Program-made: the position numbers and the translations under genes
Shown here: positions 2,111 to 39,651 of the stretch, one piece after another
Numbering within the stretch: position 1 is the stretch's first letter
Layout of the letters: every line of letters starts with the position of its first letter
The notes under the pieces: model-generated
Database searches by the model: none
Told to the model about the DNA's origin: nothing
What the model saw: only the letters and a program-made list of their open reading frames with translations
Source: a virus
Lineage: Duplodnaviria > Caudoviricetes
IMG/VR virus record: IMGVR_UViG_3300020045_005726
Span: 1-46,279 of that record
Length of the DNA: 46,279 nt
Strand: one strand, 5' to 3'

Positions 2111-3958
2111 ATGACCTCAGTAAACGACTCGCTTACCAATTTAGTTTCAGGCCTTGGCACTGATCGCGACAAGACGATCGCGACCAGTTACACGGTTAGA
2201 CTGCTGGGCAAGGTCGATCTTGACAATGCTTACCGGGGCGATTGGATAGCGCGCAAGATAGTTGATATTCCCGCGAAAGATGCCACCAGGGAGTGGCGAT
2301 CATGGCAGGCTGAGGCAGAGCAAATTACTCTGCTTGAAGCCGAAGAAAAGCGGCTTAAGCTGCAGGATCGGGTAAAGCAGGCGCTTACCAAAGCTCGATT
2401 GTATGGAGGCGCAGCTATTGTTATCGGCATAAAGAATGCAGGCAATGAGGTTTGGGCAAAAGAGCTAACACCGGAATCAATTGGGCAGGGCGGCCTGATG
2501 TACCTGCACACCTGCTCGCGACACGAAATAAGCTCAGGCCAGATTAACAATGACTTGCTTTCCCCATACTTCGGAGAGCCAGAATATTATCAAGTGAGTT
2601 CGCTTACCGCTGGCATGGTTACCGTTCACCCGTCACGAGTAGTTCGCTTTGTTGGTGCTGAGCTGCCAGACCGTGCGCTATCAATTGGCGGCTGGGGCGA
2701 TAGCATTATCCAGGCAATCAATGACGCCATTATCCATGCTGGACTCGCCCAGGGTGAGATTGCAAGCATGATGCAGGAGGCAAATGTCGATGTTATCAAG
2801 ATGCCCGGACTTATGCAGAACGTTGCTACCGATGCATATAGAAACAAAGTTATGCAGCGCTACCAGTTAGCGGCTATTGGCAAATCTGTAAACCGCTCGC
2901 TAATGATCGATGGCGATGAGGATTGGCAGGCTATTGTTAAAAACTTCTCGAACCTTCCCGAGCTGCTAAAAATTTATCTCAACATCGCCGTTGCTGCTGG
3001 TGATGTTCCCGCGGTTAGATTGGCGTGGGAGAATGCTGGAGCGCTTAATGCGTCCGGCGATGCCCATATCCGCATGTATTACGATAATGTGGCCAGCGAG
3101 CAAAAGAACACGATTGCGCCAGCGCTTTCCCGTCTTGATGAAGTGCTGATAATGTCCGCACTCGGCAAGCGTCCAGCAGAGGTTTTCTACATCTGGAAAC
3201 CGCTATGGCAGATGACCGAATCGGAAAAAGCCGATGTAATGGTCAAGAAATCGCAGGCGGTTAGCAATATCGTAAACACCCAATTGATTGATCCATGGGT
3301 TATGAATAAGGCCTTGGCTAACATGCTCATCGAGGATGGCTCATTCCCAGGGCTTGAGGCTGCATTGGAGGAATTTGAATCCATGCAAGGCGAAGAGGAA
3401 GCGCTTAACGAAGAAGACGAAAACGTCCAGGAGCAATTCGAGAAGGTAATGGGAGAGGAAGACGAAAAAGGCAACCCTGTCACTGATGCTGCTCCAAGAC
3501 CGCTTTACGTTCGCCGCGATGTGATCAACACCAAAGATATTTTAACCTGGGCTAAGGCTCTTGTTGATGCTGGCATTATCGATGAATCAGAGCTGATTAA
3601 AGCTGATGATATGCACGTAACCATTGCCTACAGTCGCACCCCTGTTGATTGGATGAAGATGGGCGAGAACTGGGATCAGGATAAAGATGGCAATGTGACT
3701 ATCGCCAAAGGTGGGCCGCGACTGGTTGAGCCTCTTGGTGGTCAAGGCGCTATCGTCCTCATGTTCTCAAGTAATGCCTTGGTGTGGCGCAATATGGGCA
3801 TGCGTGAGCGCGGCGCGAGCTGGGACTATGAAGAGTACCAGCCGCATATTACCATCGCTTACACCACCAAACCTGTTAGTCAGATCGATATTGATTCGAT
3901 CATGCCTTATTCCGGTGAGATTAAATTGGGTGCCGAAATATTTGAGGAAATAAAATAG
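2111..3958 (+). CDS. portal protein (DUF1073-like) fused to a C-terminal Acb1-like 2H phosphoesterase
   Basis: The N-terminal ~430 aa is portal-like ('W.ARKIVDIPA.DATREW', 'ARLYGGA', 'VHPSRV'). An acidic linker follows, then a domain with two HxT motifs, 'MHVTIAYSR' and 'YQPHITIAY'. Confidence 0.85.
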   Translation: MTSVNDSLTNLVSGLGTDRDKTIATSYTVRLLGKVDLDNAYRGDWIARKIVDIPAKDATREWRSWQAEAEQITLLEAEEKRLKLQDRVKQALTKARLYGGAAIVIGIKNAGNEVWAKELTPESIGQGGLMYLHTCSRHEISSGQINNDLLSPYFGEPEYYQVSSLTAGMVTVHPSRVVRFVGAELPDRALSIGGWGDSIIQAINDAIIHAGLAQGEIASMMQEANVDVIKMPGLMQNVATDAYRNKVMQRYQLAAIGKSVNRSLMIDGDEDWQAIVKNFSNLPELLKIYLNIAVAAGDVPAVRLAWENAGALNASGDAHIRMYYDNVASEQKNTIAPALSRLDEVLIMSALGKRPAEVFYIWKPLWQMTESEKADVMVKKSQAVSNIVNTQLIDPWVMNKALANMLIEDGSFPGLEAALEEFESMQGEEEALNEEDENVQEQFEKVMGEEDEKGNPVTDAAPRPLYVRRDVINTKDILTWAKALVDAGIIDESELIKADDMHVTIAYSRTPVDWMKMGENWDQDKDGNVTIAKGGPRLVEPLGGQGAIVLMFSSNALVWRNMGMRERGASWDYEEYQPHITIAYTTKPVSQIDIDSIMPYSGEIKLGAEIFEEIK

Positions 3959-5568
3959 TGTTGCGCCTTCGCGTGCATGATGCTGGCTGCCAGTGTCATC
4001 TATTCACCGATGCAAACCGTAGCGACCCTACCGGCACCAAGGGCATTCGTGTTGAATTCGAGAATAAGCTAACGGCCAAATTCAAGCGCATCAAGTCGCT
4101 GATCAATCAGGCCATTGTTCAAAATGATGTGTTTGGATTGAAAAAGCCGGTGTTTGGCGATGCGGCGCCGGCCATTATCATGGATGCCTCTGTGCCGCCC
4201 CCGCGCGCGTACCAGTTCACTCGATCGGCAGAAAAGGTTGACCAGTTCATGCAGTGGCTGCGCGCCGCCGAAGATGAGGAAATCCTGCAGATAATGCCAG
4301 GGGCTAACGTTGCCAGCTCGGCACGCACCGCTTGGACAAATACCTATATCGATACCGCTTATCAAAAAGGCATCCGCGATGCAGGCGCCAAGCTCAAGAA
4401 GGGCGGCGCCACCGTTGCAGATTCATGGGTGCGCAATGCGTTCAATCGACCGGTGCACGCGGATCGCCTCGGGCTCGCCTATACCCGCACGTTTACCGAG
4501 CTTAACGGCATCACTCAGGCAATGGATCAGCAGATAAGCCGCATCCTTGCCCAAGGCATTGGCGAGGGGCGCGGACCGCTGGAAATTGCCCGCCAGCTCA
4601 ATGAGAAGGTCGATAAAATCGGCATCACCCGCGCGCGCATGCTTGCCCGTACGGAAGTTGTGAGCGCTCACGCCGAGGCATCAATTAACGCTTACCAAGA
4701 GGCCGGATTGGAAGGTGTTGAGGTTGAAGCGGAAGTGCTAAACGGTAGCGATCCGTGCCCCGAGTGCCAAGACCTTGCCGCTGCTGGTCCATACACCATT
4801 AGCGAGGCGCGCGGACTAATTCCTGCGCACCCCAACGCCGTATTTGAAGGCTCAACTTTTGTTAGCTATGGCGAATGCCTTGAGATCGTCCGCGCTCGGT
4901 ATCTTGGCCCATCTGTCATACTTTCCTGTAATGGAGGGCTGTATCGGACGACAATCGGCCCTAATCACCCAATGCTCACCGCAAGGGGATTTGTTAAGGC
5001 TGCAGAAATCAATAAAGGCGACAAGATACTCTACGATCTTCGGCACGATAGGGCCATGCTTGGCGCCAGCCTTGATTTCGATAAGATTCCATTCTGTGAG
5101 GACACGTTCGAGTCTTGCATGCCGGTTGGCATGAACACGGGCATTGCCGCTTCCAGTTCTGATCTCCACGGCGATAGGGAGTTCTGCTATGGTGAAGTCA
5201 ATGCAATACGTCCCGCAAACGGTCTGCTGAAAAAATTTGATACCGGCTTGATTGAGGATATCAGCGAAAATATCCTCATGGGGGCCGATGCCTATTCCCT
5301 TCTCGTTTCTGGTCTTGCTTCTAGCCTCCCTGCTCTCGACTCTATCGACTTGCCCGCGTCTGGCGGCATGGGCTGCTCTAACTCCGGGATTGGCGCTGAT
5401 TACGTATGGCTTGTCGTTCATGATGTTGAGTTTTCCGTATTCGATGGATGGGCTTTTGACTATAGCACAGCATCTAGCCTATATTGCAATAACGGATTTG
5501 TTGTAAAGAATTGCGTTTGCTCACTTAACCCGAAAGTAGTTAACGGATCAGGGATAGACCTGATATAA
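3958..5568 (+). CDS. head morphogenesis protein (MuF/SPP1 gp7 family) interrupted by an intein
   Basis: 'RARMLARTE', 'CPEC' and the C-terminal P-x-H-P-N-C-x-C motif, here split as IPAHPN|intein|CVC; located after the portal. Confidence 0.9.
   Translation: MLRLRVHDAGCQCHLFTDANRSDPTGTKGIRVEFENKLTAKFKRIKSLINQAIVQNDVFGLKKPVFGDAAPAIIMDASVPPPRAYQFTRSAEKVDQFMQWLRAAEDEEILQIMPGANVASSARTAWTNTYIDTAYQKGIRDAGAKLKKGGATVADSWVRNAFNRPVHADRLGLAYTRTFTELNGITQAMDQQISRILAQGIGEGRGPLEIARQLNEKVDKIGITRARMLARTEVVSAHAEASINAYQEAGLEGVEVEAEVLNGSDPCPECQDLAAAGPYTISEARGLIPAHPNAVFEGSTFVSYGECLEIVRARYLGPSVILSCNGGLYRTTIGPNHPMLTARGFVKAAEINKGDKILYDLRHDRAMLGASLDFDKIPFCEDTFESCMPVGMNTGIAASSSDLHGDREFCYGEVNAIRPANGLLKKFDTGLIEDISENILMGADAYSLLVSGLASSLPALDSIDLPASGGMGCSNSGIGADYVWLVVHDVEFSVFDGWAFDYSTASSLYCNNGFVVKNCVCSLNPKVVNGSGIDLI
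4837..5511 (+). mobile_element. intein (225 aa, Ala1...Lys-Asn/Cys+1) in MuF
   Basis: Block A 'AVFEGSTF', block B 'TIGPNHPMLTARGFVKAAEINKGDKI', block F/G 'GWAFDYSTASSLYCNNGFVVKN/C'. Removing it restores HPN-CVC. Confidence 0.88.
4852..5421 (-). CDS. putative DUF559/Vsr-like endonuclease encoded antisense within the intein
   Basis: 189 aa ORF lying wholly inside the intein: 'E..FADIL..AGIKFFQQ...GTYCIDF....IAVEI..G....H...R.....WNLIEI'. An ACGGAAAA purine stretch lies upstream of the ATG. Confidence 0.65.
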   Translation of the reverse strand: MNDKPYVISANPGVRAAHAARRGQVDRVESREARSKTRNEKGIGIGPHEDIFADILNQAGIKFFQQTVCGTYCIDFTIAELPIAVEIRTGSGNARVHANRHARLERVLTEWNLIEIKAGAKHGPIVPKIVEYLVAFIDFCSLNKSPCGEHWVIRADCRPIQPSITGKYDRWAKIPSADDLKAFAIANKS

Positions 5569-5598
5569 TATTATCACTATCGAAATAATCGAGGCGTT

Positions 5599-5781
5599 AT
5601 GAATACCAATAATTCACCCGCACCAAAGCCCCAAAAACTTGACGATGCACAGCTCTTGCGCTGGGCTGCCTCCCGTGTGCAAGAATGCCAGAACGATAAA
5701 TTCTATGGCAAGCTAACTGTCCATTTCGAGAATGGCCGGATAGTGCGCACCACTTCGGAAAAGTCGGAGATACCATCTTGA
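5599..5781 (+). CDS. small hypothetical protein (DUF2292/YezD-like 'YGKLTVHFENGRI')
   Basis: GAGG RBS before the ATG; 60 aa. Confidence 0.6.
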   Translation: MNTNNSPAPKPQKLDDAQLLRWAASRVQECQNDKFYGKLTVHFENGRIVRTTSEKSEIPS

Positions 5782-5999
5782 GCAGTAATGACCAAGTATC
5801 AAATGAAAAAACATACACTATGAGTCAAATCAAGGAGGCCTTCTTTAAGGAGTTTCACAGGTCTGGTGAAGTTTTCTTTGATTATCTTGGTGACGACTTA
5901 TCGGCACATGAAAGCACGCAGGCTATTTTTGATGACTTTGCGCAAAGACTTGAGGCGCTCCAATCTCTTGAATTTGACACCGACACCAAACCAATCTAA
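5778..5999 (+). CDS. hypothetical protein
   Basis: 73 aa ORF overlapping the previous stop; the start may be the ATG at 5820. Confidence 0.55.
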   Translation: MSSNDQVSNEKTYTMSQIKEAFFKEFHRSGEVFFDYLGDDLSAHESTQAIFDDFAQRLEALQSLEFDTDTKPI

Positions 6000-31784: not shown

Positions 31785-32103
31785 TTTCAGATAGTAGTGC
31801 TGATGCGTTAACCCATGCGGCGCGCGCCTTCTTAATCTCGGCGGCGCTCTTTGGTAGAAAGGTAAGTGTTCCAGGATTGGTTTCTTGCATGGCCTTTAGC
31901 GCTGCGATAAGGCGGTCGCGCTCATAGCTTATGCGCAGGCTTTCTTCATCGGTGAGCCGCTCATTTTTTAAAGAAAAAAGAATGCTAAATGTGTTGAGCG
32001 CAACAACAAAAAGAACAAATAAAAGAGAGCACTCGGCGTCTTTAATATCTGTTGATACAAGCAAAAAAAGTACAAACACAAGTGATATTGAAATGTTTTT
32101 CAT
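31741..32103 (-). CDS. hypothetical membrane protein
   Basis: ACGGAGAAAACC leader; two N-terminal hydrophobic segments. Confidence 0.65.
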   Translation of the reverse strand: MKNISISLVFVLFLLVSTDIKDAECSLLFVLFVVALNTFSILFSLKNERLTDEESLRISYERDRLIAALKAMQETNPGTLTFLPKSAAEIKKARAAWVNASALLSEIEKNDGGKNAILKP

Positions 32104-32135
32104 TCTGGTTTTCTCCGTTGGTTATTGGTCTATTC

Positions 32136-32177
32136 AAAATAACACAAGATAAAACTTTATCAAGTTAAATTTATCAA
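32136..32177 (-). promoter_or_regulatory. early promoter/operator copy 1
   Basis: Minus strand TTGATA-AAGTTTTATCTTGTGT-TATTTT; contains palindrome GATAAA-AC-TTTATC; 26 nt identical to 39884-39909. Confidence 0.7.
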
Positions 32178-32188
32178 TTCCAACAAAT

Positions 32189-32213
32189 AAAAAAGCCGAG
32201 CTATTAACTCGGC
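32189..32213 (-). terminator. intrinsic terminator after rdgC
   Basis: Minus strand GCCGAG-TTAATAG-CTCGGC-TTTTTT. Confidence 0.75.
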
Positions 32214-32234
32214 AAGTCGCTTCCTCTGACTAAA

Positions 32235-33152
32235 TCAGGAATCTAAAAGGGTATCATCTTCGCCGCCATAGGCAGCCAATAGCGCTTTGATAAAGTTGCT
32301 CAGCTCAAGGCCCATGATTGCAAAATCGGCGTCGAACTGTTCGGCCTTACTTTCGGGGTTGCGGTCGTTGGCCTTATCGCTGATTGAATCCTCGAATCTC
32401 AGGCGCTTAATGGCGACCTGATCATCAATAATGCAGGTTATGGCCTCTTTCCAAACCAGTTCGATTTTGCTTGCGTGCATACCACTTTCAAGGTGGTTAA
32501 GTATTTCGCTGGCGGTAAGGTCCTGGCGCTTCGCACGGATCACGCGGCCATCTTTGGCGGCCTGCAGCTCTACCTCATCACCCAATTCAAACTGGTGCGG
32601 CGCTTGGCTTTCGTATAGCCAATTGGTCATAACTTGGGTAGGGATATTCTTTGGCGCAATAGGAATGCACCGAAGCGACCCCAGCGCCTCGCGCAGCTTG
32701 CTGAGTAAATCCTCTGCGCGCTTGGCTGATGAGGTATTCACCACAATCATCTTGCTATCAGGATCAATGTAGGCATAGGTTAGCGTTGATCGCGTGAAGG
32801 CGCGTGGAAGCAGCGAAAAGATAATTTCGTCCTTCAGTGTGTCGCGTTCTTTGCGGCCAACAGGGCGAGACTCAGCTTCATTGATCGCCAATATTTTGGC
32901 TTCTAGCTGCTCCTTGATAACACCACCAGGGAGTATTTTTTCCTGCTTCTTGGCGCATATCATGATACGACCATTGGTAACGTGAACAAACTCAGTGCCG
33001 TGGCGCCCAAGAGGCTCAGTAAAGCCGTAGCGCATAGGGTCAAGGCTTCCGCATTCGTTGAATTTAAATTCGGCCAGCTTAGCGGCCAAATCCTCCGGCG
33101 ATATCGCCCATGCTTCGGTCAATCGGTAAAGCCTTGCATTGTTAAACCACAT
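32235..33152 (-). CDS. rdgC: recombination-associated protein RdgC
   Basis: 'MWFNNARLYRL', 'EKILP..VIK', 'LLPRAF', 'SAKRAEDLLS.LR.ALGSL', 'FDADF.IM..EL'. Confidence 0.95.
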   Translation of the reverse strand: MWFNNARLYRLTEAWAISPEDLAAKLAEFKFNECGSLDPMRYGFTEPLGRHGTEFVHVTNGRIMICAKKQEKILPGGVIKEQLEAKILAINEAESRPVGRKERDTLKDEIIFSLLPRAFTRSTLTYAYIDPDSKMIVVNTSSAKRAEDLLSKLREALGSLRCIPIAPKNIPTQVMTNWLYESQAPHQFELGDEVELQAAKDGRVIRAKRQDLTASEILNHLESGMHASKIELVWKEAITCIIDDQVAIKRLRFEDSISDKANDRNPESKAEQFDADFAIMGLELSNFIKALLAAYGGEDDTLLDS

Positions 33153-33172
33153 GGTTTTGCTCCGTTTTTTGG

Positions 33173-33343
33173 TTAGTTATGGTTCTGGTTTTCTGGCCAT
33201 TCAAATGGCTTTAATTCATTAGCGCTATTCCACATCTTTTCAAATGTAGCCGGGTTCGATACCTGCGCAAATAGCTGGTTTTCCCACTGGTTAATTCCGG
33301 TTATCTCGGTTACTTCCGGCACCGGTAAAGGTTTGTTGTTCAT
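33173..33343 (-). CDS. 56-aa hypothetical protein (not in ORF track)
   Basis: AAGGA RBS; MNNKPLPVPEVTEITGINQWENQ...WPENQNHN*. Confidence 0.5.
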   Translation of the reverse strand: MNNKPLPVPEVTEITGINQWENQLFAQVSNPATFEKMWNSANELKPFEWPENQNHN

Positions 33344-33565
33344 GGCATTAATCCTTAAAAAATTCGATGGCCGAATTTATCGGCGTCAAGCCCGCATTTA
33401 AGCGCCCCACTCGGCTAGCGATTGCATCAGGGGCATGGCCGCCACTCCACAGAAACGGCCAAATTCTAAAATAGCAAAAGATCGAACCACCTGCGCTATT
33501 GTTGCCCCTCCCCCTAGTTTCGGACTCTGGCAACGGCTTGGTTACAGTTTTGCTTGCTAGGCGAT

Positions 33566-33660
33566 CTTTGATCTTGCCTCCAACCTGCGCACGTTAGCTA
33601 TTCGTGAGACTACGGAGGACAACATGGAGGCAAGATCAAAGCCCTCTCTTTCGAAAGGGC
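33566..33660 (-). ncRNA. candidate structured RNA element
   Basis: Perfect 17-bp inverted repeat CTTTGATCTTGCCTCCA/TGGAGGCAAGATCAAAG, plus a GAAA-tetraloop hairpin on the minus strand. Confidence 0.45.
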
Positions 33661-33666
33661 GGTAAA

Positions 33667-33900
33667 TCAGCTCGTAAATGCCGGAATTGATTTAATAATA
33701 TTTGAAGTGCAAAGGGCAACGTATTTTTTGCCGTCGATATCTTCAAAAACAAGATCGACAGTAGAGTTGACTTCTTGAGTGCCTTTTCTAACGACAACAG
33801 CCTGTTTAAGCGTTAGGATTTTATAATCCTCTTCATAAACATGGCCTTGCGCGGATGCCTCTTCCGGTGTAGCGCAAATTTTTATTTCTAAGTGCTGCAT
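33667..33900 (-). CDS. hypothetical protein
   Basis: GAGGA RBS; 77 aa. Confidence 0.75.
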   Translation of the reverse strand: MQHLEIKICATPEEASAQGHVYEEDYKILTLKQAVVVRKGTQEVNSTVDLVFEDIDGKKYVALCTSNIIKSIPAFTS

Positions 33901-33942
33901 TTAAAAATCCTCTAATTGAGTTAATTGGCAATTGATATTAAT

Positions 33943-34528
33943 CTAGCCCTGAAACTTCATGGCCTCGAAAAATACATCCTTGCACGCATGCGCGGCGGCA
34001 ACTGCGCTATTGGCGCCTTCCAGTTCAGAGCCGAAAAAATGCACATAAGCCTGAGCCAAGGTCGGGTTTTTAAAGCCCTTCTTTGCAGCTGGAACTTGCA
34101 CGATAGGCTTGGTTAGCGCTGCGGTGCAAATCACCTCGGATGCCTTCCACTTATCGGCAATCTCATCGCCCAAGAAGCCGCTTAGCGGCAATGCGCAAAA
34201 CCTTATTTTGGAATGATGAGCTGTGACATACAAGCGGCAAATCGCCACGCAGCTCGTTAAATTCGGCCATCACTTCCGCTTCGGGGCGGCCAACTACGGC
34301 AGCCAGATCGGTGGTAATGCCATGGACGCTTGCGGCGCCCTCTGGAATCTCCCAGCCATCCGGTTTAATCATTGACTCAACGCTGCCAACAATCTCGCGG
34401 GTAGCCAGGTTAACCTTAATCGCGCAAATGCTTACTATGTGCGGCTGGTGCGGAGCATCCGATGGCGCCTGAAAATCAGGAAATCCGGTGGTTTCGGTCT
34501 TAACAAAGACCATAAAATCATTTTTCAT
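33943..34528 (-). pseudogene. DEDDh (DnaQ-like) exonuclease, catalytically degenerate and frameshifted near 34178
   Basis: 'VFVKTETTG', 'IKP.GW.IP......HGIT', 'LVCHSSSFQ' in one frame; 'CT...K.PTL..AY..FFG..LEGANSA..A' in the next. Confidence 0.75.
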
Positions 34529-34563
34529 TTTGTTGCGTCCTTAGTTGGTTATCGACAAGAACC

Positions 34564-34593
34564 AAGATAAACTAATGATAAAACATTATCAAG
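34564..34593 (-). promoter_or_regulatory. early promoter/operator copy 2
   Basis: Minus strand TTGATA-ATGTTTTATCATTAGTT-TATCTT (17-nt spacer); GATA-N6-TATC palindrome. Confidence 0.65.
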
Positions 34594-34606
34594 CTTTAAT
34601 TAAAAA

Positions 34607-34885
34607 TTACGGCTTTTTAATTGACCCAATACCAACCGCTTCGCCCATGTAGGTATCAAATCCGGCCATGCGGTGAAGCGTTTCGTGCATGCCATGCGCT
34701 TGCTGTTGCAGTGTGTTGCACAGGTGTTGCGCATACAGCGGATTCCAGCCGCAAGTATCAGGATGGCAATTGCCGCCACAAACGGCGCAGCCATCGCCCT
34801 GCGTTTCATCCTGAAGCTGTTTCTTAGCGGCCTGTAGCGCCTCTATTGCAGTATTGTATTGCTCAATCGTAAATAAACGCATCAC
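34607..34885 (-). CDS. hypothetical protein
   Basis: 92 aa with Cys/His cluster. Confidence 0.7.
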   Translation of the reverse strand: MMRLFTIEQYNTAIEALQAAKKQLQDETQGDGCAVCGGNCHPDTCGWNPLYAQHLCNTLQQQAHGMHETLHRMAGFDTYMGEAVGIGSIKKP

Positions 34886-35142
34886 TCAACCCCTATGCAA
34901 TTCTCAAAAAACCGGTGCCTGCAATGCGCGAGCGCCGTAGCGTGATCAATCTCGGCCTCATCAATAAACGTGCAGTGCTTGCCATTGGCGAAAGTTACTC
35001 GCCAATAGCGCTTTAGCTCTGGTTTAGGCGTTTTTGATTTGGAGGCACTTGTGCTGTCCATCAAAAATACTCTTGGTGATGATTGCGGCCAGTGCTGGGG
35101 CAAGGCCGTTGACGGTTTCAAAGTCGCGCTGCACTTGCTCAA
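34882..35142 (-). CDS. hypothetical protein
   Basis: Coupled to the downstream ORF; true start probably ATG 35061. Confidence 0.5.
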   Translation of the reverse strand: MSKCSATLKPSTALPQHWPQSSPRVFLMDSTSASKSKTPKPELKRYWRVTFANGKHCTFIDEAEIDHATALAHCRHRFFENCIGVE

Positions 35143-36754
35143 GCGTGGTTAGAGCCTTGGCTGCCAAAGGCTCAAGGAAGGTGCTTTGCTGAGGTTTTGA
35201 TATAGCTCCGCCTCCCGATCCGCCACCGCCATAAACAATCTTCGGCTCTATCGTTACAGGCTCTTGCGCTGGCGCTTCCGGCTCTGCCTGCTTAGCTGCC
35301 TGCTGCTGGTTAAATTCCTCAGCTGCAACCCGGTCGGATTCTTGCTTATCAAGCACAGCCTGTGCCGCGTCATCCGCCTCCTTCTGCTTGCGGATTTTTT
35401 CATTAGCCAGTACCTCAGCCGCATCGTCAATGCGCTTTTTCTCGGCTGCATCATGATCGGCTATGCGCTGCTTGCAAATTGCCTCCAGCGCCTCGCTATC
35501 CTTGACCACAAGCTGCTGCTTATCGGCGAATAGAAATAAATGCTTTTCGCCAATAGTGTTAATGATGGCAATATTCTTTTCCAGAATTGCAGTCAATCTA
35601 TCGCATTCAATTTTTTCATTTGCAATTGCCGTATTAAGATCGGACCGCATATTATCAAATGAGCTTTTACCCTTAATTACCAAGCTAAAATCAGGCATGG
35701 CATAGGGGTATTTTATTGGCGATAGCTTTGCATCAATAAGCTGCACATGGGATGCCAGCGCATTTTTTGCAGTAAGAACCAGTTCGGCTTTAAGTGATGT
35801 ATTTCTGGTGTCAATTTGATTTTTTTCGGTAGTGCGCGCCTTTTTAATAAATTCCTTAATTGAATTAAGGTCTTTTACAAAGGTATCGGCGTCGCCCATT
35901 TCGCCCATTACGCGCGCGACAAGGCTATCAATATTTGACTCGGCAGTCGTATAGCTTTTGATCCTAGTCTTTGCGTTTTCAAAATCCTGATCCGTAGTTA
36001 GCGGTATCTTTGATTTTTCCACTAACTCCATTGCCTTGGATTTAAATTCTGCAAGGTTGCTGGTGATTGAAATTCCTTTATCGAAAGTAAGGTCATAGAT
36101 AATTTCAGGCAATGACATAACCGGTTCGGCTATTGGCTTTGGCGCCTCCGGCTCGGTTTGCGCATAGCTATCCAGGTCGATAGAAAATTGTTTCCAGCCG
36201 CTAATAATTCTATCGCGTAAAGCGGTATCAGATTCATACCAAAGCGTTACCGGCTGCTCGCTTGAATCGGTGCCGAGCGATCCACGAAACAACCCTTTAA
36301 TCGCGCCTGAGCAAATCAATTGCTGTTCAAGTTGGATTCGATAAACCAAAGGAATTTCACCAGATGCACCAGCAGCGCGGATAGCCTTATTCAGCGTCTT
36401 GTGTTCGTAGATTATTTCCTCATCCATTGTCCAGCCATCGAGAGAGGCGGACAAGCGCAAGCCATCAAATTCAACCGACACCGTTGCAGGGAATAATTCT
36501 TGCCCAATCACTTCCTCGGCAAGCGGTCTATCCTGCTGCTCGTATCGGTGCCCGGCGTCGAATAGCTCTTGGGTGCGAGCATCAACATCAGGACGCAAAC
36601 CGGTAGCCATTTCGCGGAGCAATTCATCGCGGCTTTTGTATGGGCTTTCTCCCAGCATTGCCGGTGCATCACTGGCGTTAAATTGTTTTGGTATGGCGCG
36701 GTATGCGTGCCACTCTGGCGAGCCTTGTACTAGGTTATGGATTTCACGCTTCAT
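35024..36754 (-). CDS. YqaJ-like viral recombination exonuclease with long C-terminal extension
   Basis: 'QGSPEW..YR', 'ASDAPAMLG.SPYKSR', 'GH..E', 'ASLDG', 'EHK', 'Y..Q..QQL'. Confidence 0.9.
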   Translation of the reverse strand: MKREIHNLVQGSPEWHAYRAIPKQFNASDAPAMLGESPYKSRDELLREMATGLRPDVDARTQELFDAGHRYEQQDRPLAEEVIGQELFPATVSVEFDGLRLSASLDGWTMDEEIIYEHKTLNKAIRAAGASGEIPLVYRIQLEQQLICSGAIKGLFRGSLGTDSSEQPVTLWYESDTALRDRIISGWKQFSIDLDSYAQTEPEAPKPIAEPVMSLPEIIYDLTFDKGISITSNLAEFKSKAMELVEKSKIPLTTDQDFENAKTRIKSYTTAESNIDSLVARVMGEMGDADTFVKDLNSIKEFIKKARTTEKNQIDTRNTSLKAELVLTAKNALASHVQLIDAKLSPIKYPYAMPDFSLVIKGKSSFDNMRSDLNTAIANEKIECDRLTAILEKNIAIINTIGEKHLFLFADKQQLVVKDSEALEAICKQRIADHDAAEKKRIDDAAEVLANEKIRKQKEADDAAQAVLDKQESDRVAAEEFNQQQAAKQAEPEAPAQEPVTIEPKIVYGGGGSGGGAISKPQQSTFLEPLAAKALTTLEQVQRDFETVNGLAPALAAIITKSIFDGQHKCLQIKNA

Positions 36755-37637
36755 CGACTAATTCCCCTTCAATGGCAGGCTTAACCGCATTGATAGCATC
36801 AATTTGGCTTTGGCTTAATGTGTATTTAGAGCTGATTTTTGCAATTACCTGCTCTGGTGTGTTTTTGCCTGATTGAATTCCGTTTTTATAAGTCGGGAAA
36901 TTGGAATTAAATTTTGCATCTTCCATCGGCGGCAATGAATCCGGTTTTGCTGCATCCGCTGGTGATGGATTAATTACCTTTTCAGGCTGATCATCGTCCG
37001 CCAATTCATCGGCGGAATAAACGCCGAGAATCACATCAGGGCAGTTAAGTCTCGCCCATTTTTTTGTAGCAAGGTAGGCAATTTGCTGCTTAGGGTCTTC
37101 CGCCCAAAGTGTTGAATTGCGGGTTCTTACTTGGGTAAGCTTCAGGGTTAACTCGGTTGGCTCATCATCGCCGCGAAGTGTTGCCGTAACGGTAACACTA
37201 AGGCCAATTTCATCGTTAATATTCCAATTTGGCACGCGGAATTTAACGGGATTACCAGCGTCATCCTTTTTGGTTTTGCTTTCCAATTCCTTCATGTTGC
37301 CGAGAATCTTGTCCCAGTTTCCATCCCAGCGAAATTTTAGACGGCCTTTCGTTACGCCAGACGACTCAATAACCGCGTTAACAAGCTGCGCCTCATATCC
37401 CAAAACGCCATTGACTACATGGGTTTTTTGAGCCACTACAAACGGGTTCATTTGCCACTGCATGGCCTGCAATATAACGGCAAAGCAGTCGGCGGGATTA
37501 CCCTGGAAGTGCTTAGGCGTTTGAACCTTTCCGCTCGCCATGAGATTGGCAAGCCTGTCCATAGTCTCAAAAGACTGCGCCGAAAAAATCAGGTCACTGC
37601 CACGAACATGGCCGACCTCCTTAGATGTTTCGCTCAT
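36744..37637 (-). CDS. recT: RecT-family single-strand annealing protein
   Basis: 'P.HFQGNPADC.AV..QA.QW.MNPF.VAQKTH.VNG.LGYEAQLVNAV', 'RNS.LW..DPKQQ.AY'. Confidence 0.9.
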   Translation of the reverse strand: MSETSKEVGHVRGSDLIFSAQSFETMDRLANLMASGKVQTPKHFQGNPADCFAVILQAMQWQMNPFVVAQKTHVVNGVLGYEAQLVNAVIESSGVTKGRLKFRWDGNWDKILGNMKELESKTKKDDAGNPVKFRVPNWNINDEIGLSVTVTATLRGDDEPTELTLKLTQVRTRNSTLWAEDPKQQIAYLATKKWARLNCPDVILGVYSADELADDDQPEKVINPSPADAAKPDSLPPMEDAKFNSNFPTYKNGIQSGKNTPEQVIAKISSKYTLSQSQIDAINAVKPAIEGELVDEA

Positions 37638-37711
37638 ATGGTTTTGCTCCGTTTTCCGCTGCGAAATGGCAGCTATGCGATTGTATCGCTATGATAATGT
37701 TTTATCAATCA

Positions 37712-38341
37712 CTAAAGCCAAGATGGGCGGGTTATTTCATCCTGTTCGCGAATTGGCGCAACAAGCACAAACGCATCGCAGTGGGCGCTAACCATAAGCA
37801 GAGCCGAGCTCTCATTATTTTGAAAGCAGCGGACACCGTTCCATTTATTTCTTCCACCCTGAAATTCAGAGAAGAAATTGAAACCGCGCAATAGGTAATT
37901 CTGATTAATCATTGATGCGGCAATACCGGGCTTTAACTGTGTGAAATCAGGGAATACACGGCTTACGGTTGGGAAATTACCGTCAATGGTTGCGGCCTTA
38001 TAAAGCAATCCAGGAACGCTTTGAAGATCAATAAAATCAGCATCGCCAACGTAAAGAGAGCCATCAGCAAGGACGTTTGCTTTTCCCTTCTTTGGCAATT
38101 TTTTCACAACATCTGCGTGGATGATCGCACCCTCTTCGGTTGAGCGACCATTAGCGTCATAAATCACGCAAGCGGTATGCCCGTCTGACGCCTCGATAAC
38201 TACGCCATCATCATAGCCAGTAGCAGCGCGGCGCACGTTAACACCTTGAAGGTAATAGCGCACATCGCGAACGGCGGCGAATTTCACAGCCATATGCAAC
38301 AGGCGAGCATCAACGGTTAATTTTACTTGGGTTTCCTGCAT
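37712..38341 (-). CDS. DNA polymerase III beta-clamp-like protein (truncated DnaN-like)
   Basis: 'A..DVRYYLQGV', 'ASDGH', 'IDGNFP...RVFP'. Confidence 0.75.
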   Translation of the reverse strand: MQETQVKLTVDARLLHMAVKFAAVRDVRYYLQGVNVRRAATGYDDGVVIEASDGHTACVIYDANGRSTEEGAIIHADVVKKLPKKGKANVLADGSLYVGDADFIDLQSVPGLLYKAATIDGNFPTVSRVFPDFTQLKPGIAASMINQNYLLRGFNFFSEFQGGRNKWNGVRCFQNNESSALLMVSAHCDAFVLVAPIREQDEITRPSWL

Positions 38342-38364
38342 GGTTTTTTCTCCGGTTATTAAAT

Positions 38365-38562
38365 TTAATCAAGCTTGCGCTGTATCCGGTTAAGGATTTC
38401 GTTTTGCTTTGGGCTGAGCGTGTAATCGTCGCCGCGCTCGGCAATGTCGTTGATAAAATCCCACTCCCAGTCCGTTAGCTTGTCGGGCTGGTCGAGAGCG
38501 TCTTTAACGAATTTAATTTGAACGCGATTCACTTTTAGATTGCTCCAATTGTAATTGCTCAA
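38365..38562 (-). CDS. hypothetical protein
   Basis: 'LTDWE.DFI.DI......LSPKQ..IL.RI', a common phage motif. Confidence 0.7.
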   Translation of the reverse strand: MSNYNWSNLKVNRVQIKFVKDALDQPDKLTDWEWDFINDIAERGDDYTLSPKQNEILNRIQRKLD

Positions 38563-38651
38563 GAGTCCTGCGCGCCTGCTTGCGCGTAGCCTCCACCGCT
38601 TCGAGATTGCCCGCTATCGCAACAAATAGGCCGTTGGTGTAGGGGATGGTT

Positions 38652-38927
38652 TTAATTGCTTTCATCGACCTTGGGCTCCTTGTGATCTTCCAAAAACGCA
38701 ACGCCAAGAGCTGTAAGGCGCTTTACCTCGCCGAACTTAGCATCAACTAAAAAACCACCGGTAGTAACAATGCCGTAAGCGGTATGTCCAGACCAATAGC
38801 CGTTAACCTGATTGCGCAAAGTCTTGGCAATTACATCGCGCTTTGCTTCGGTGGAGTTATTGATATCTTCACCAAAGTTAGTGCCCGCAAAAAGGTGCTC
38901 GATGTATTCGTCGGTTACTACGTTCAT
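38652..38927 (-). CDS. hypothetical protein
   Basis: 91 aa in operon. Confidence 0.7.
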   Translation of the reverse strand: MNVVTDEYIEHLFAGTNFGEDINNSTEAKRDVIAKTLRNQVNGYWSGHTAYGIVTTGGFLVDAKFGEVKRLTALGVAFLEDHKEPKVDESN

Positions 38928-38930
38928 AAA

Positions 38931-39260
38931 TCACCCTGCAATACAGTTAACTTTAAGCGCTAATTGATTGCGCGATAAATAAGCAACCATTTGGCCAAGT
39001 TCATATTTTTGAATCGAGGTCATATCATTTCTTTTGCCAAGCTCTTGCGACAAATGAAATATTGATTTTTTCAAATACTCATCAGTGTAATAAGCGCTGA
39101 ATTCGTATTGATTGTATGGCGTAATCTTTGCGCACTCTGGCATCTTGTGGTTCCAGATCATGCGCAAAGTATGGAACAGATGGCGCGTCTTCATTTTTGA
39201 CGGGTAAATAAATTCCCCTCCTTTCTGGCGCCATTTGAACGCCTGCACAACTTGGTTCAC
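38931..39260 (-). CDS. hypothetical protein
   Basis: 109 aa; 4-nt overlap with the upstream gene. Confidence 0.7.
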   Translation of the reverse strand: MNQVVQAFKWRQKGGEFIYPSKMKTRHLFHTLRMIWNHKMPECAKITPYNQYEFSAYYTDEYLKKSIFHLSQELGKRNDMTSIQKYELGQMVAYLSRNQLALKVNCIAG

Positions 39261-39607
39261 AGAATAAACCCCAGCTCTTCCGATTCACCATCGAACAGAT
39301 ATTCACAAACCTGCCATTGGGCGCAGCGGATGGTTAAATCGCGGATTGATGACGGATCATTTTCGTTTGCGCGATGCATGGCAGCCGAAAATAGGGCGTG
39401 ATTAATTACAAGGTTAAGCACATCGTCAAACGTTAGCGTGTGATCGCCCTTGCGGATGCGCACCGGCTTTCCATCGATCAGCTTTTTGGCACAGGTCATG
39501 ACCTCTGTGCGCTTCTCGAATTTCTCTTTAAGGTAGCGGCGCTCTTCTACCGGCGTCACGCTATTATGCGCAACCTCGGCGGCGGTATTGCTGCATGGTT
39601 CGCTCAT
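39257..39607 (-). CDS. hypothetical protein
   Basis: ACGGAGAAAACC leader; 116 aa. Confidence 0.75.
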   Translation of the reverse strand: MSEPCSNTAAEVAHNSVTPVEERRYLKEKFEKRTEVMTCAKKLIDGKPVRIRKGDHTLTFDDVLNLVINHALFSAAMHRANENDPSSIRDLTIRCAQWQVCEYLFDGESEELGFIL

Positions 39608-39651
39608 GGTTTTCTCCGTTAATTTTTATTGGTTAAGCCGCGATTAGGCGG

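What the first reader, a model, noticed from the sequence alone, without database searches (positions are those of the whole stretch)
4837..5511. Intein whose apparent homing endonuclease is encoded on the antisense strand
Seen: the MuF intein has splicing blocks at both ends, but its ~120 aa middle has no recognisable LAGLIDADG or HNH motif. The opposite strand has a codon-aligned 189 aa ORF (5421 to 4852) wholly inside the intein. It reads 'GPHEDIFADILNQAGIKFFQQTVCGTYCIDFTIAELPIAVEIRTG...H...RLERVLTEWNLIEI', the pattern of DUF559/Vsr-like (EDxHD-related) nucleases. Its C-terminus overlaps intein blocks A/B, so both strands would be constrained. An ACGGAAAA stretch before its ATG resembles this phage's ACGGAGAAAACC early-gene leader. 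Established: intein homing nucleases are normally in-frame domains. Inference: antisense coding would let the nuclease be made on the early (-) strand during replication while the host gene is late. Caveat: the usual 'E.DG' reads 'EIRTG', so activity is uncertain.
Basis: partly seen in the sequence, partly recalled or inferred. Interest (0 to 1): 0.92.

Follow-up and report, generated by a model that had tools for sequence, protein, structure and literature searches.

The report
Ala-start intein with backwards nuclease gene
A phage head-assembly gene carries a protein insert that likely cuts itself out (an intein), and the opposite DNA strand of that insert encodes a conserved protein predicted to be the DNA-cutting enzyme that likely spreads it; a 2025 preprint already described this layout, but this branch also lacks the usual first splicing residue and would splice by a rarely seen route.

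Summary
Confirmed. Bases 4837-5511 are a 225-aa intein in the MuF gene (HINT fold); an intein-free allele is 96% identical. The codon-aligned antisense ORF (5421-4852) is a real gene: open in 40 of 40 distinct parsed homologues, 0 stops against 185 expected, with selection switching strand inside the insert. Its model matches Vsr, DUF559 and I-Bth0305I (Z 9.5-10.8). The layout is not new: Gosselin et al. (bioRxiv 2025) report antisense VSR-like nucleases in minor-capsid inteins, and their REQ3 intein is a full-length homologue (43%). This scan also noted the layout in 16 other windows. What this branch adds: it starts with Ala and has no WCT triplet, so it is class-2-like by sequence (the preprint calls REQ3 class 3); the nuclease lacks the HTH domains and the EDxHD His; a sigma-70-like antisense promoter is enriched in splicing blocks F/G (lead from an earlier scan note). 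The 'early-gene leader' claim is not supported. Splicing, expression and cleavage are untested.

The parts
3958..5568 (+). MuF / SPP1 gp7-like head morphogenesis gene, between portal and head maturation protease, interrupted in its HPN^C motif
   Evidence: Pfam Phage_Mu_F E 1.3e-5, below the curated cut-off; TIGR01641 E 5.6e-5; neighbours by PHROGs
4837..5511 (+). 225-aa intein: Ala1, block B G-P-N-H (His44), block F Asp208, penultimate Lys, terminal Asn225; no WCT triplet
   Evidence: HINT fold, Z 11.3, rmsd 2.1, 116 aligned, model residue 1 on intein residue 1; boundaries from intein-free alleles; signature tally
5512..5568 (+). C-extein, 18 aa beginning with Cys+1, identical to that of the intein-free allele L092
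4852..5421 (-). 189-aa Vsr/DUF559-like endonuclease gene, codon-aligned antisense to intein residues 6-195; no HTH domain
5113..5277 (-). Conserved predicted active-site core: Glu49, Gln66, Asp75, Glu86, Asn93, Arg103
   Evidence: each invariant in 39 of 39 antisense translations while five of the six sense residues opposite them vary; Glu49 and Asp75 align with Glu170 and Asp196 of I-Bth0305I
5459..5467 (-). Predicted extended -10 promoter box (TG-C-TATAGT) for the antisense gene, overlapping the codon of block F Asp208; no good -35 in this copy
   Evidence: family-wide enrichment against synonymous recoding in the same call; not reported by the consensus scan
5431..5438 (-). ACGGAAAA, a weak Shine-Dalgarno-like stretch (3 of 6) before the ATG
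   Evidence: 26 of 39 homologues have a start codon with a match of 4 or more here, against 0-11 in six other windows

Best explanation
This is a dual-strand mobile element: the + strand encodes an intein inside the MuF head-assembly protein that likely splices itself out, and the - strand encodes, codon against codon, a conserved Vsr/DUF559-fold protein predicted to be the endonuclease that likely cuts intein-free MuF alleles and so spreads the element. Shown by sequence and tools: the two folds (predicted models), the exact insertion point, purifying selection on each strand in its own part, and the scattered presence of the intein among intein-free alleles. Inferred: (1) host sigma-70 RNA polymerase reads the nuclease from a promoter written into splicing blocks F/G, independently of the late head operon; (2) in mixed infection the nuclease nicks or cuts the uninterrupted HPN^C coding site, and recombination (the phage has RecE/RecT-like genes) copies the 675 bases across; (3) the late MuF precursor is repaired by class-2-type splicing, Cys+1 attacking the Asn-Ala1 bond directly with His44 and Asp208 assisting; (4) the element arose when a free-standing HTH-HTH-Vsr nuclease gene, lying antisense beside its MuF target, entered a Cys1 MuF intein; this branch later lost Cys1 and, in most members, the HTH domains, leaving two Arg-rich helices and the catalytic domain to bind DNA.
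For: Open antisense frame in 40 of 40 distinct parsed inteins at 35-57% identity to the window's and in 17 of 19 further loci read by eye; 0 stops against 185 expected in 36 loci, while 43 against 29 lie outside the ORF. In the insert (intein residues 68-182) the wobble position flips: single-base codon differences silent only on the antisense strand 16801, only on the sense strand 5522; in blocks F/G 478 against 6583; pN/pS is lower on the antisense strand in 19 of 19 disjoint pairs there and 0 of 19 in F/G. Insertions in L019 and L048 read as the family's HTH-like module on the antisense strand (E about 1e-15). A shortened intein (L050) has antisense stops, so the intein alone does not force the frame open. 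Antisense model pLDDT 89.5; best matches Vsr 1cw0 Z 10.8 (rmsd 2.5, 110 aligned), DUF559-like 3hrl Z 10.2, I-Bth0305I 3r3p Z 9.5; profile hits 3hrl E 8e-6, 3r3p E 0.003. Intein-bearing MuF alleles are scattered among intein-free ones: 6 changes for 10 intein-bearing rows in a 66-row tree, at least 4 forced by strong branches; the window's sister allele is intein-free at 96% identity, while the nearest intein (82%) sits in a 72%-identical extein. Promoter score 7.5 against 4.1 +/- 0.6 under synonymous recoding. A free-standing homologue lies convergent with an intein-free MuF gene in Acinetobacter phage IME285. The Ala1 branch is one clade in the nuclease tree (29 of 41 rows, 97% SH-aLRT).
Against: No activity, splicing or expression was measured. 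No near-identical intein was found in divergent exteins among 65 sequences, so very recent homing is not shown; exact loss could also give the patchy tree. The His and last Asp of the EDxHD motif are absent (Asn93; no acid), and the HTH domains of most relatives are missing (only 7 of 67 scored relatives have a short N-terminus). Pfam DUF559 is below cut-off (16.1 against 20.6 bits) and no Foldseek match reached E 0.001. The window's own ribosome-binding site is weak and its promoter lacks a -35 box. The intein lacks the block B Thr (Gly in 40 of 40) and the penultimate His. The homologues are related, so the pooled counts are not independent.
Confidence: 0.78

Rival explanations
1. The antisense gene is a real but no longer mobile nuclease: after losing its HTH domains and catalytic His it is kept for another job (for example DNA binding or nicking during phage recombination or competition between phages), and the intein is inherited vertically and lost exactly now and then.
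For: No HTH and no EDxHD His; the window's intein and its closest relative diverge as much as the last 130 extein residues (82% and 83%); no near-identical inteins in distant exteins.
Against: Acidic active-site residues are invariant; intein-bearing alleles are isolated tips among many intein-free ones, including a 96% sister, which would need many exact losses; intein and extein identities correlate weakly (Spearman 0.24); the gene stays tied to one target site across all loci read.
Confidence: 0.15
2. The nuclease homes, but the Ala1 insert does not ligate: it only cleaves at its C-terminal end, or stays in place, and the phage tolerates this because MuF is dispensable.
For: No Cys/Ser1, no WCT, no block B Thr, no penultimate His. 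That MuF-type proteins can be non-essential is recalled, not tested here.
Against: His44, Asp208, Asn225 and Cys+1 are kept in all or nearly all of 40 inteins, with strong sense-strand selection in both splicing halves; the C-extein is unchanged from the intein-free allele; Ala1 KlbA inteins splice without a first nucleophile (PMC2807308).
Confidence: 0.12
3. The antisense ORF is a shadow of the sense frame: codon-aligned reverse frames are often open by chance.
For: Codon-aligned antisense frames have few stops in GC-rich exteins (several loci with 0-2 stops in about 225 codons).
Against: 0 against 185 expected stops, strand switch of selection, confident nuclease fold, 404 related proteins, a free-standing homologue, decay in L050.
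Confidence: 0.01

Closest known systems
Full inteins with an anti-sense VSR-like homing endonuclease in actinobacteriophages, including minor-capsid (IPR006528) inteins; Gosselin, Arsenault and Gogarten, bioRxiv 10.1101/2025.01.02.630785 (read: abstract, first part of Results, section 15, passages; supplements not seen)
   Same: Same layout, host gene and nuclease fold. The paper names a 225-aa minor-capsid intein in phage REQ3 and says all its minor-capsid inteins have non-canonical nucleases; the REQ3 intein is 43% identical to this one over 225 of 225 residues and has the antisense ORF at 39%.
   Different: The paper files REQ3 as class 3, but neither it nor this intein has the WCT triplet; 'class 2' and 'promoter' do not occur in its main text. 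[quoted passage not shown] The supplementary table, which may list REQ3's nuclease type, could not be seen.
I-Bth0305I and the EDxHD (Vsr-like) homing endonucleases; PMC3239194 (read: passages and section 17) and PMC2677866 (read: passages)
   Same: Vsr-like catalytic fold; Glu170 and Asp196 have counterparts.
   Different: No His213 or Asp222 counterpart, no N-terminal NUMOD/HTH region in this copy; those genes lie in introns or on the same strand between split-intein halves.
Class 2 (KlbA-type, Ala1) inteins; PMC2807308 (read: passages), PMC7664689 (read: passages)
   Same: Ala1, no WCT triplet, Cys+1, Asp at block F position 4, His in block B.
   Different: Phage MuF host instead of archaeal KlbA; Gly instead of the block B Thr; nuclease tree places the branch next to Cys1 MuF inteins; KlbA is not the closest structure (Z 8.6, rank 22 of 32).
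Cys1 MuF inteins with antisense HTH-HTH-Vsr genes in cultured phages (Gordonia Affeca, Vivi2, Malisha; Cronobacter ES2; Pseudomonas BR313c; Edwardsiella MSW-3; Klebsiella KpTDp1; Salmonella PhiSTP2; Aaphi23)
   Same: Same site, same codon-aligned antisense nuclease, unannotated in the records read.
   Different: They begin with Cys, keep T-P-N-H in block B and carry long HTH-type N-termini.

Membership tests
Intein (HINT superfamily) | HINT fold | tested here: met
   Predicted model, Z 11.3, rmsd 2.1, 116 aligned to Mxe GyrA intein; 22 chains at Z 8 or more
Intein (HINT superfamily) | In-frame insertion whose removal restores the host protein; terminal Asn followed by Cys/Ser/Thr; block B His | tested here: met
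   L092 and P0195 intein-free alleles; Cys+1 in 40 of 40; His44 and Asn225 invariant
Intein (HINT superfamily) | Protein splicing activity | not testable with these tools
   needs a splicing assay
Class 1 intein | Cys or Ser at position 1 | tested here: not met
   Ala in the window and in 39 of 40 inteins, Ser in one; structural alignment puts Ala at position 1
Class 3 intein | WCT triplet (Trp B12, Cys F4, Thr G5) | tested here: not met
   B12 Met/Ile/Val in 40 of 40, F4 Asp in 39 of 40 (one not parsed), G5 Val in 40 of 40; definition from PMC2807308
Class 2 intein | No N-terminal nucleophile and no WCT triplet, with Cys+1 | tested here: met
Class 2 intein | Typical block B Thr (position 7) with His (position 10) | tested here: not met
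   His present; position 7 is Gly in 40 of 40, partly set by the parsing pattern but also invariant in the 39 independently found proteins
Class 2 intein | Direct attack of Cys+1 on the N-terminal amide | not testable with these tools
   needs mutants and intermediates
Vsr/DUF559-like nuclease fold | Vsr-like alpha/beta core with conserved Glu, Gln, Asp | tested here: met
   Z 10.8, 10.2, 9.5 to 1cw0, 3hrl, 3r3p; Glu49, Gln66, Asp75, Glu86 invariant; Pfam DUF559 E 0.01, below cut-off
EDxHD homing endonucleases | Composite E-D-x-H-D motif | tested here: not met
   E and D present; His213 position is Asn93 (invariant in 39 of 39), Asp222 position not acidic, by profile alignment to 3r3p
EDxHD homing endonucleases | N-terminal NUMOD/HTH DNA-binding region | tested here: not met
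   absent from the window's ORF even stop to stop; present in L019 and L048 and many relatives
EDxHD homing endonucleases | Site-specific cleavage beside the insertion site | not testable with these tools
   needs a cleavage assay
Anti-sense VSR-like HEN inteins (Gosselin et al. 2025) | Contiguous intein with a VSR-like ORF on the opposite strand and no folded in-frame nuclease | tested here: met
   (low confidence in much of the sense insert); full-length homology to the REQ3 intein

The most novel reading that the evidence does not exclude
A widespread clade of phage class 2 inteins, evolved from Cys1 MuF inteins independently of archaeal KlbA, that splices without Cys1, the block B Thr or the penultimate His, and whose 675 bases also hold a complete antisense gene (own promoter in the splicing blocks, ribosome site, start and stop) for a minimal, HTH-less Vsr-like homing nuclease with Asn in place of the catalytic His that still drives homing.
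Probability: 0.45. Interest if true: 0.62.

Novelty: new variant of a known kind. Interest (0 to 1): 0.42.

Why it matters
The layout is published, so the main claim is a confirmation with better numbers. The added points matter to specialists: (1) class 2 splicing has been studied in a handful of archaeal KlbA inteins (five, plus one putative case, in PMC2807308), and this clade would supply dozens of natural variants that also lack the block B Thr; (2) these nucleases are missed by annotation because they lie inside another gene on the other strand, so 'nuclease-free' inteins in phage genomes may be mobile; (3) it is a clean natural case of two proteins plus a promoter sharing one stretch of DNA, with selection switching strand along it; (4) a near-identical intein-free allele supplies the target for a direct cleavage test.

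Tried and rejected
Single-sequence searches were weak: no PDB sequence hit, no Pfam hit for the intein, no viral contig with the intein alone as query, no PHROG for the antisense protein; alignments solved this. Foldseek gave no match at E 0.001 for either model. The 'early-gene leader' reading was rejected: the leader ACGGAG(A/C)AAA(A)CC is real before five minus-strand genes, but the ORF's ACGGAAAA is further from the ATG, and the pattern is at chance level. The consensus promoter scan found no minus-strand promoter inside the intein. C-terminal insertions in L031, L036, L044, L079, L080 look HTH-like by eye, but Pfam and the family profile (best E 0.05) did not confirm it. No RNA holder was listed among sequencing runs. 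Recent homing, as near-identical inteins in distant exteins, was looked for and not found. Cys at intein position 2 (3 of 40) or nine from the end (21 of 40) was considered as a substitute nucleophile and rejected as not conserved. Paper searches for MuF plus intein gave nothing on this family; 'intein, anti-sense, VSR-like' and 'REQ3, intein' each gave only the 2025 preprint; 'class 2 intein, KlbA, Ala1' gave six listings, two of them read in passages. These searches cover open-licence papers only. L082 was a false hit.

Full report
Observation. The window is a tailed-phage genome with terminase, portal, MuF, protease and major head genes on the + strand and recombination and replication genes on the - strand. 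The MuF gene (3958-5568) holds a 225-residue insert after the HPN motif, beginning AVFEGS and ending GFVVKN before Cys. A 189-codon ORF runs 5421 to 4852 on the other strand, codon against codon. An intein-free allele in a viral contig reads HPN-CVCSLNPK with the same C-terminal 18 residues (L092), a freshwater contig skips 675 bases at this place, and another intein-free protein is 96% identical to the window's exteins (P0195). The insert's model has the HINT fold with its first residue on intein residue 1 (pLDDT 78; Z 11.3). So the boundaries are exact and Ala is residue 1.

Is the antisense ORF a gene? Reverse frames in codon register are often open, so this needed controls. From the window's own codon usage 8.2 stops are expected and none occurs. 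I fetched 82 loci; a pattern parsed 58 full inteins including the window's, 40 of them distinct. All 40 have 190-307 open antisense codons across the core, and 36 have an ATG before the first conserved motif. Of the 25 unparsed loci I read 19: 17 have the open frame, one (L050) is a shortened intein with antisense stops, and one is a false hit; six were not read. In the 36 distinct loci with enough flanking genes to estimate codon usage (one near-duplicate and three short loci dropped), 0 stops were seen against 185 expected, while the ends outside the ORF had 43 against 29. Selection changes strand along the element. In residues 68-182 the first sense codon position varies more than the third (0.59 against 0.45); in blocks F/G the reverse holds (0.36 against 0.66). 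Sense columns that alternate Leu/Phe or Val/Ile are invariant Glu, Asp and Asn on the other strand. In 19 disjoint closest pairs, median pN/pS in the insert is 0.51 antisense and 0.83 sense, lower on the antisense strand in all 19; in F/G it is 1.58 and 0.31. In the overlap with the N-terminal splicing blocks the sense strand dominates (0.40 against 0.81), but some codon choices serve the antisense protein, for example Pro42 uses CCG or CCT (antisense Arg) in 38 of 39. These sequences are related, so pooled counts overstate independence; the direction is nonetheless uniform.

What the protein is. It has 404 relatives at E 0.001 or better among cluster representatives; many of the 40 scanned hit DUF559, MTES_1575 or HTH families weakly. 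The model (pLDDT 89.5) matches Vsr (Z 10.8, rmsd 2.5, 110 aligned), NGO0050 (10.2) and the homing endonuclease I-Bth0305I (9.5); Foldseek ranks the same proteins first but at E 0.002. By profile alignment to 3r3p and the residue roles in PMC3239194, Glu49 and Asp75 match Glu170 and Asp196; His213 corresponds to an invariant Asn93 and Asp222 has no acidic counterpart. It works like a Vsr-type homing nuclease but does not meet the EDxHD motif. Unlike most relatives it has no HTH domain; two members of the same clade do (L019, L048).

Signals. A start codon with a Shine-Dalgarno match of four or more bases sits opposite the approach to block F in 26 of 39 inteins, against 0-11 in six control windows; the window's own match is weak. 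After an earlier scan note mentioned a promoter in such inteins, I tested it: the best sigma-70-like score on the antisense of blocks F/G averages 7.5 against 4.1 +/- 0.6 (maximum 5.7 in 300) when the same amino acids are recoded; 18 of 39 reach 9 or more against 3.5. Four inteins have no match, and a missing match was scored -1 in both data and null. The window has only an extended -10 box (TG-C-TATAGT, 5467-5459).

Mobility. In a tree of the last 130 extein residues (10 intein-bearing, 56 intein-free rows, chosen as the closest to the window) the intein needs 6 changes, at least 4 forced by strong branches, and the window's sister is intein-free. The closest intein (82%) is in a 72%-identical extein. 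This is the pattern homing leaves, but exact loss cannot be excluded, and no near-identical inteins were found in distant exteins.

Splicing class. Thirty-nine of 40 inteins start with Ala, all have Cys+1, none has the WCT triplet, block F position 4 is Asp, block B position 7 is Gly and the penultimate residue is Ser, Lys, Thr or Ala. By the definitions in PMC2807308 (passages) that is class 2, known there from five archaeal KlbA inteins and one putative case. The Ala1 members form one clade in the nuclease tree, next to Cys1 MuF inteins of cultured phages, which suggests an origin apart from KlbA (inference; the tree is of the nuclease, not the splicing domain). Splicing is inferred from conservation only.

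Origin. Related antisense genes with HTH-type N-termini lie in Cys1 MuF inteins of Gordonia, Cronobacter, Pseudomonas, Edwardsiella, Klebsiella, Salmonella and Aggregatibacter phages. In Acinetobacter phage IME285 a homologue is a free-standing gene facing an intein-free MuF gene, their 3' ends overlapping by 7 bases. That is the arrangement expected before such a gene entered the intein, though it could also be a derived state.

What is known. Gosselin, Arsenault and Gogarten (bioRxiv 10.1101/2025.01.02.630785; abstract, part of Results, section 15 and passages read) report anti-sense VSR-like nucleases in full inteins of actinobacteriophages and say all their minor-capsid inteins are non-canonical. 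They name the 225-aa REQ3 minor-capsid intein as class 3; it is a full-length homologue of this one (43%; antisense 39%) and has no WCT triplet. Their supplements could not be seen and may bear on REQ3's listing. PMC2677866 (passages) describes Vsr-like genes on the same strand between split inteins. The scan's own notes list this layout in 16 other windows; none of those listed held the word Ala1 together with the other terms.

Verdict. The Ala1, WCT-less splicing signature, the HTH-less nuclease with Asn for His, the embedded promoter and a 96%-identical target allele make it a new variant worth a bench test. Interest 0.42.

Noticed in passing
L090:455-2055 (Acinetobacter phage IME285): A free-standing HTH-Vsr-like homologue faces an intein-free MuF gene, 3' ends overlapping by 7 bases; identical protein in three Acinetobacter phage records. 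Possible precursor arrangement.
   Followed up: partly
L050:2501-3067: Ala1 mini-intein of the same family, about 36 residues shorter, with stops in the antisense frame: the decayed end of the homing cycle.
   Followed up: partly
L098 and 45 Salmonella phage records; L084-L089, L091, L099: Cultured phages carry Cys1 MuF inteins with an unannotated antisense nuclease gene (read in nine records; the other Salmonella records only as matches under head morphogenesis genes).
   Followed up: partly
window 32103-39620 (- strand): A repeated leader ACGGAG(A/C)AAA(A)CC precedes five minus-strand genes (starts 32103, 33152, 37637, 38341, 39607).
   Followed up: partly
window 5540-5999: A strong + strand promoter-like site (TTAACG-18-TATAAT with TG) at the end of MuF precedes two small ORFs of no known family (5599-5781, 5778-5999) inside the head operon; a similar small ORF seems to follow MuF in L093.
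   Followed up: no
window 3499-3958: The portal protein ends in a 2'-5' RNA ligase/phosphoesterase-like domain (phrog_755, E 5e-17).
   Followed up: no
window 4826-4836 joined to 5512-5515: The intein-free site reads CGCA-7 bases-TGCG, a short inverted pair around the insertion point, as might suit a dimeric nuclease; too short to weigh.
   Followed up: no
L031, L036, L044, L043, L047, L077, L079, L080: A ~50-residue insertion before block B that reads as a helical, HTH-looking segment near the C-terminus of the antisense protein; not confirmed by Pfam or the family profile.
   Followed up: partly
L092:3450-3655: A run of short tandem CTGCTGACT-type repeats downstream of the intein-free MuF gene.
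   Followed up: no
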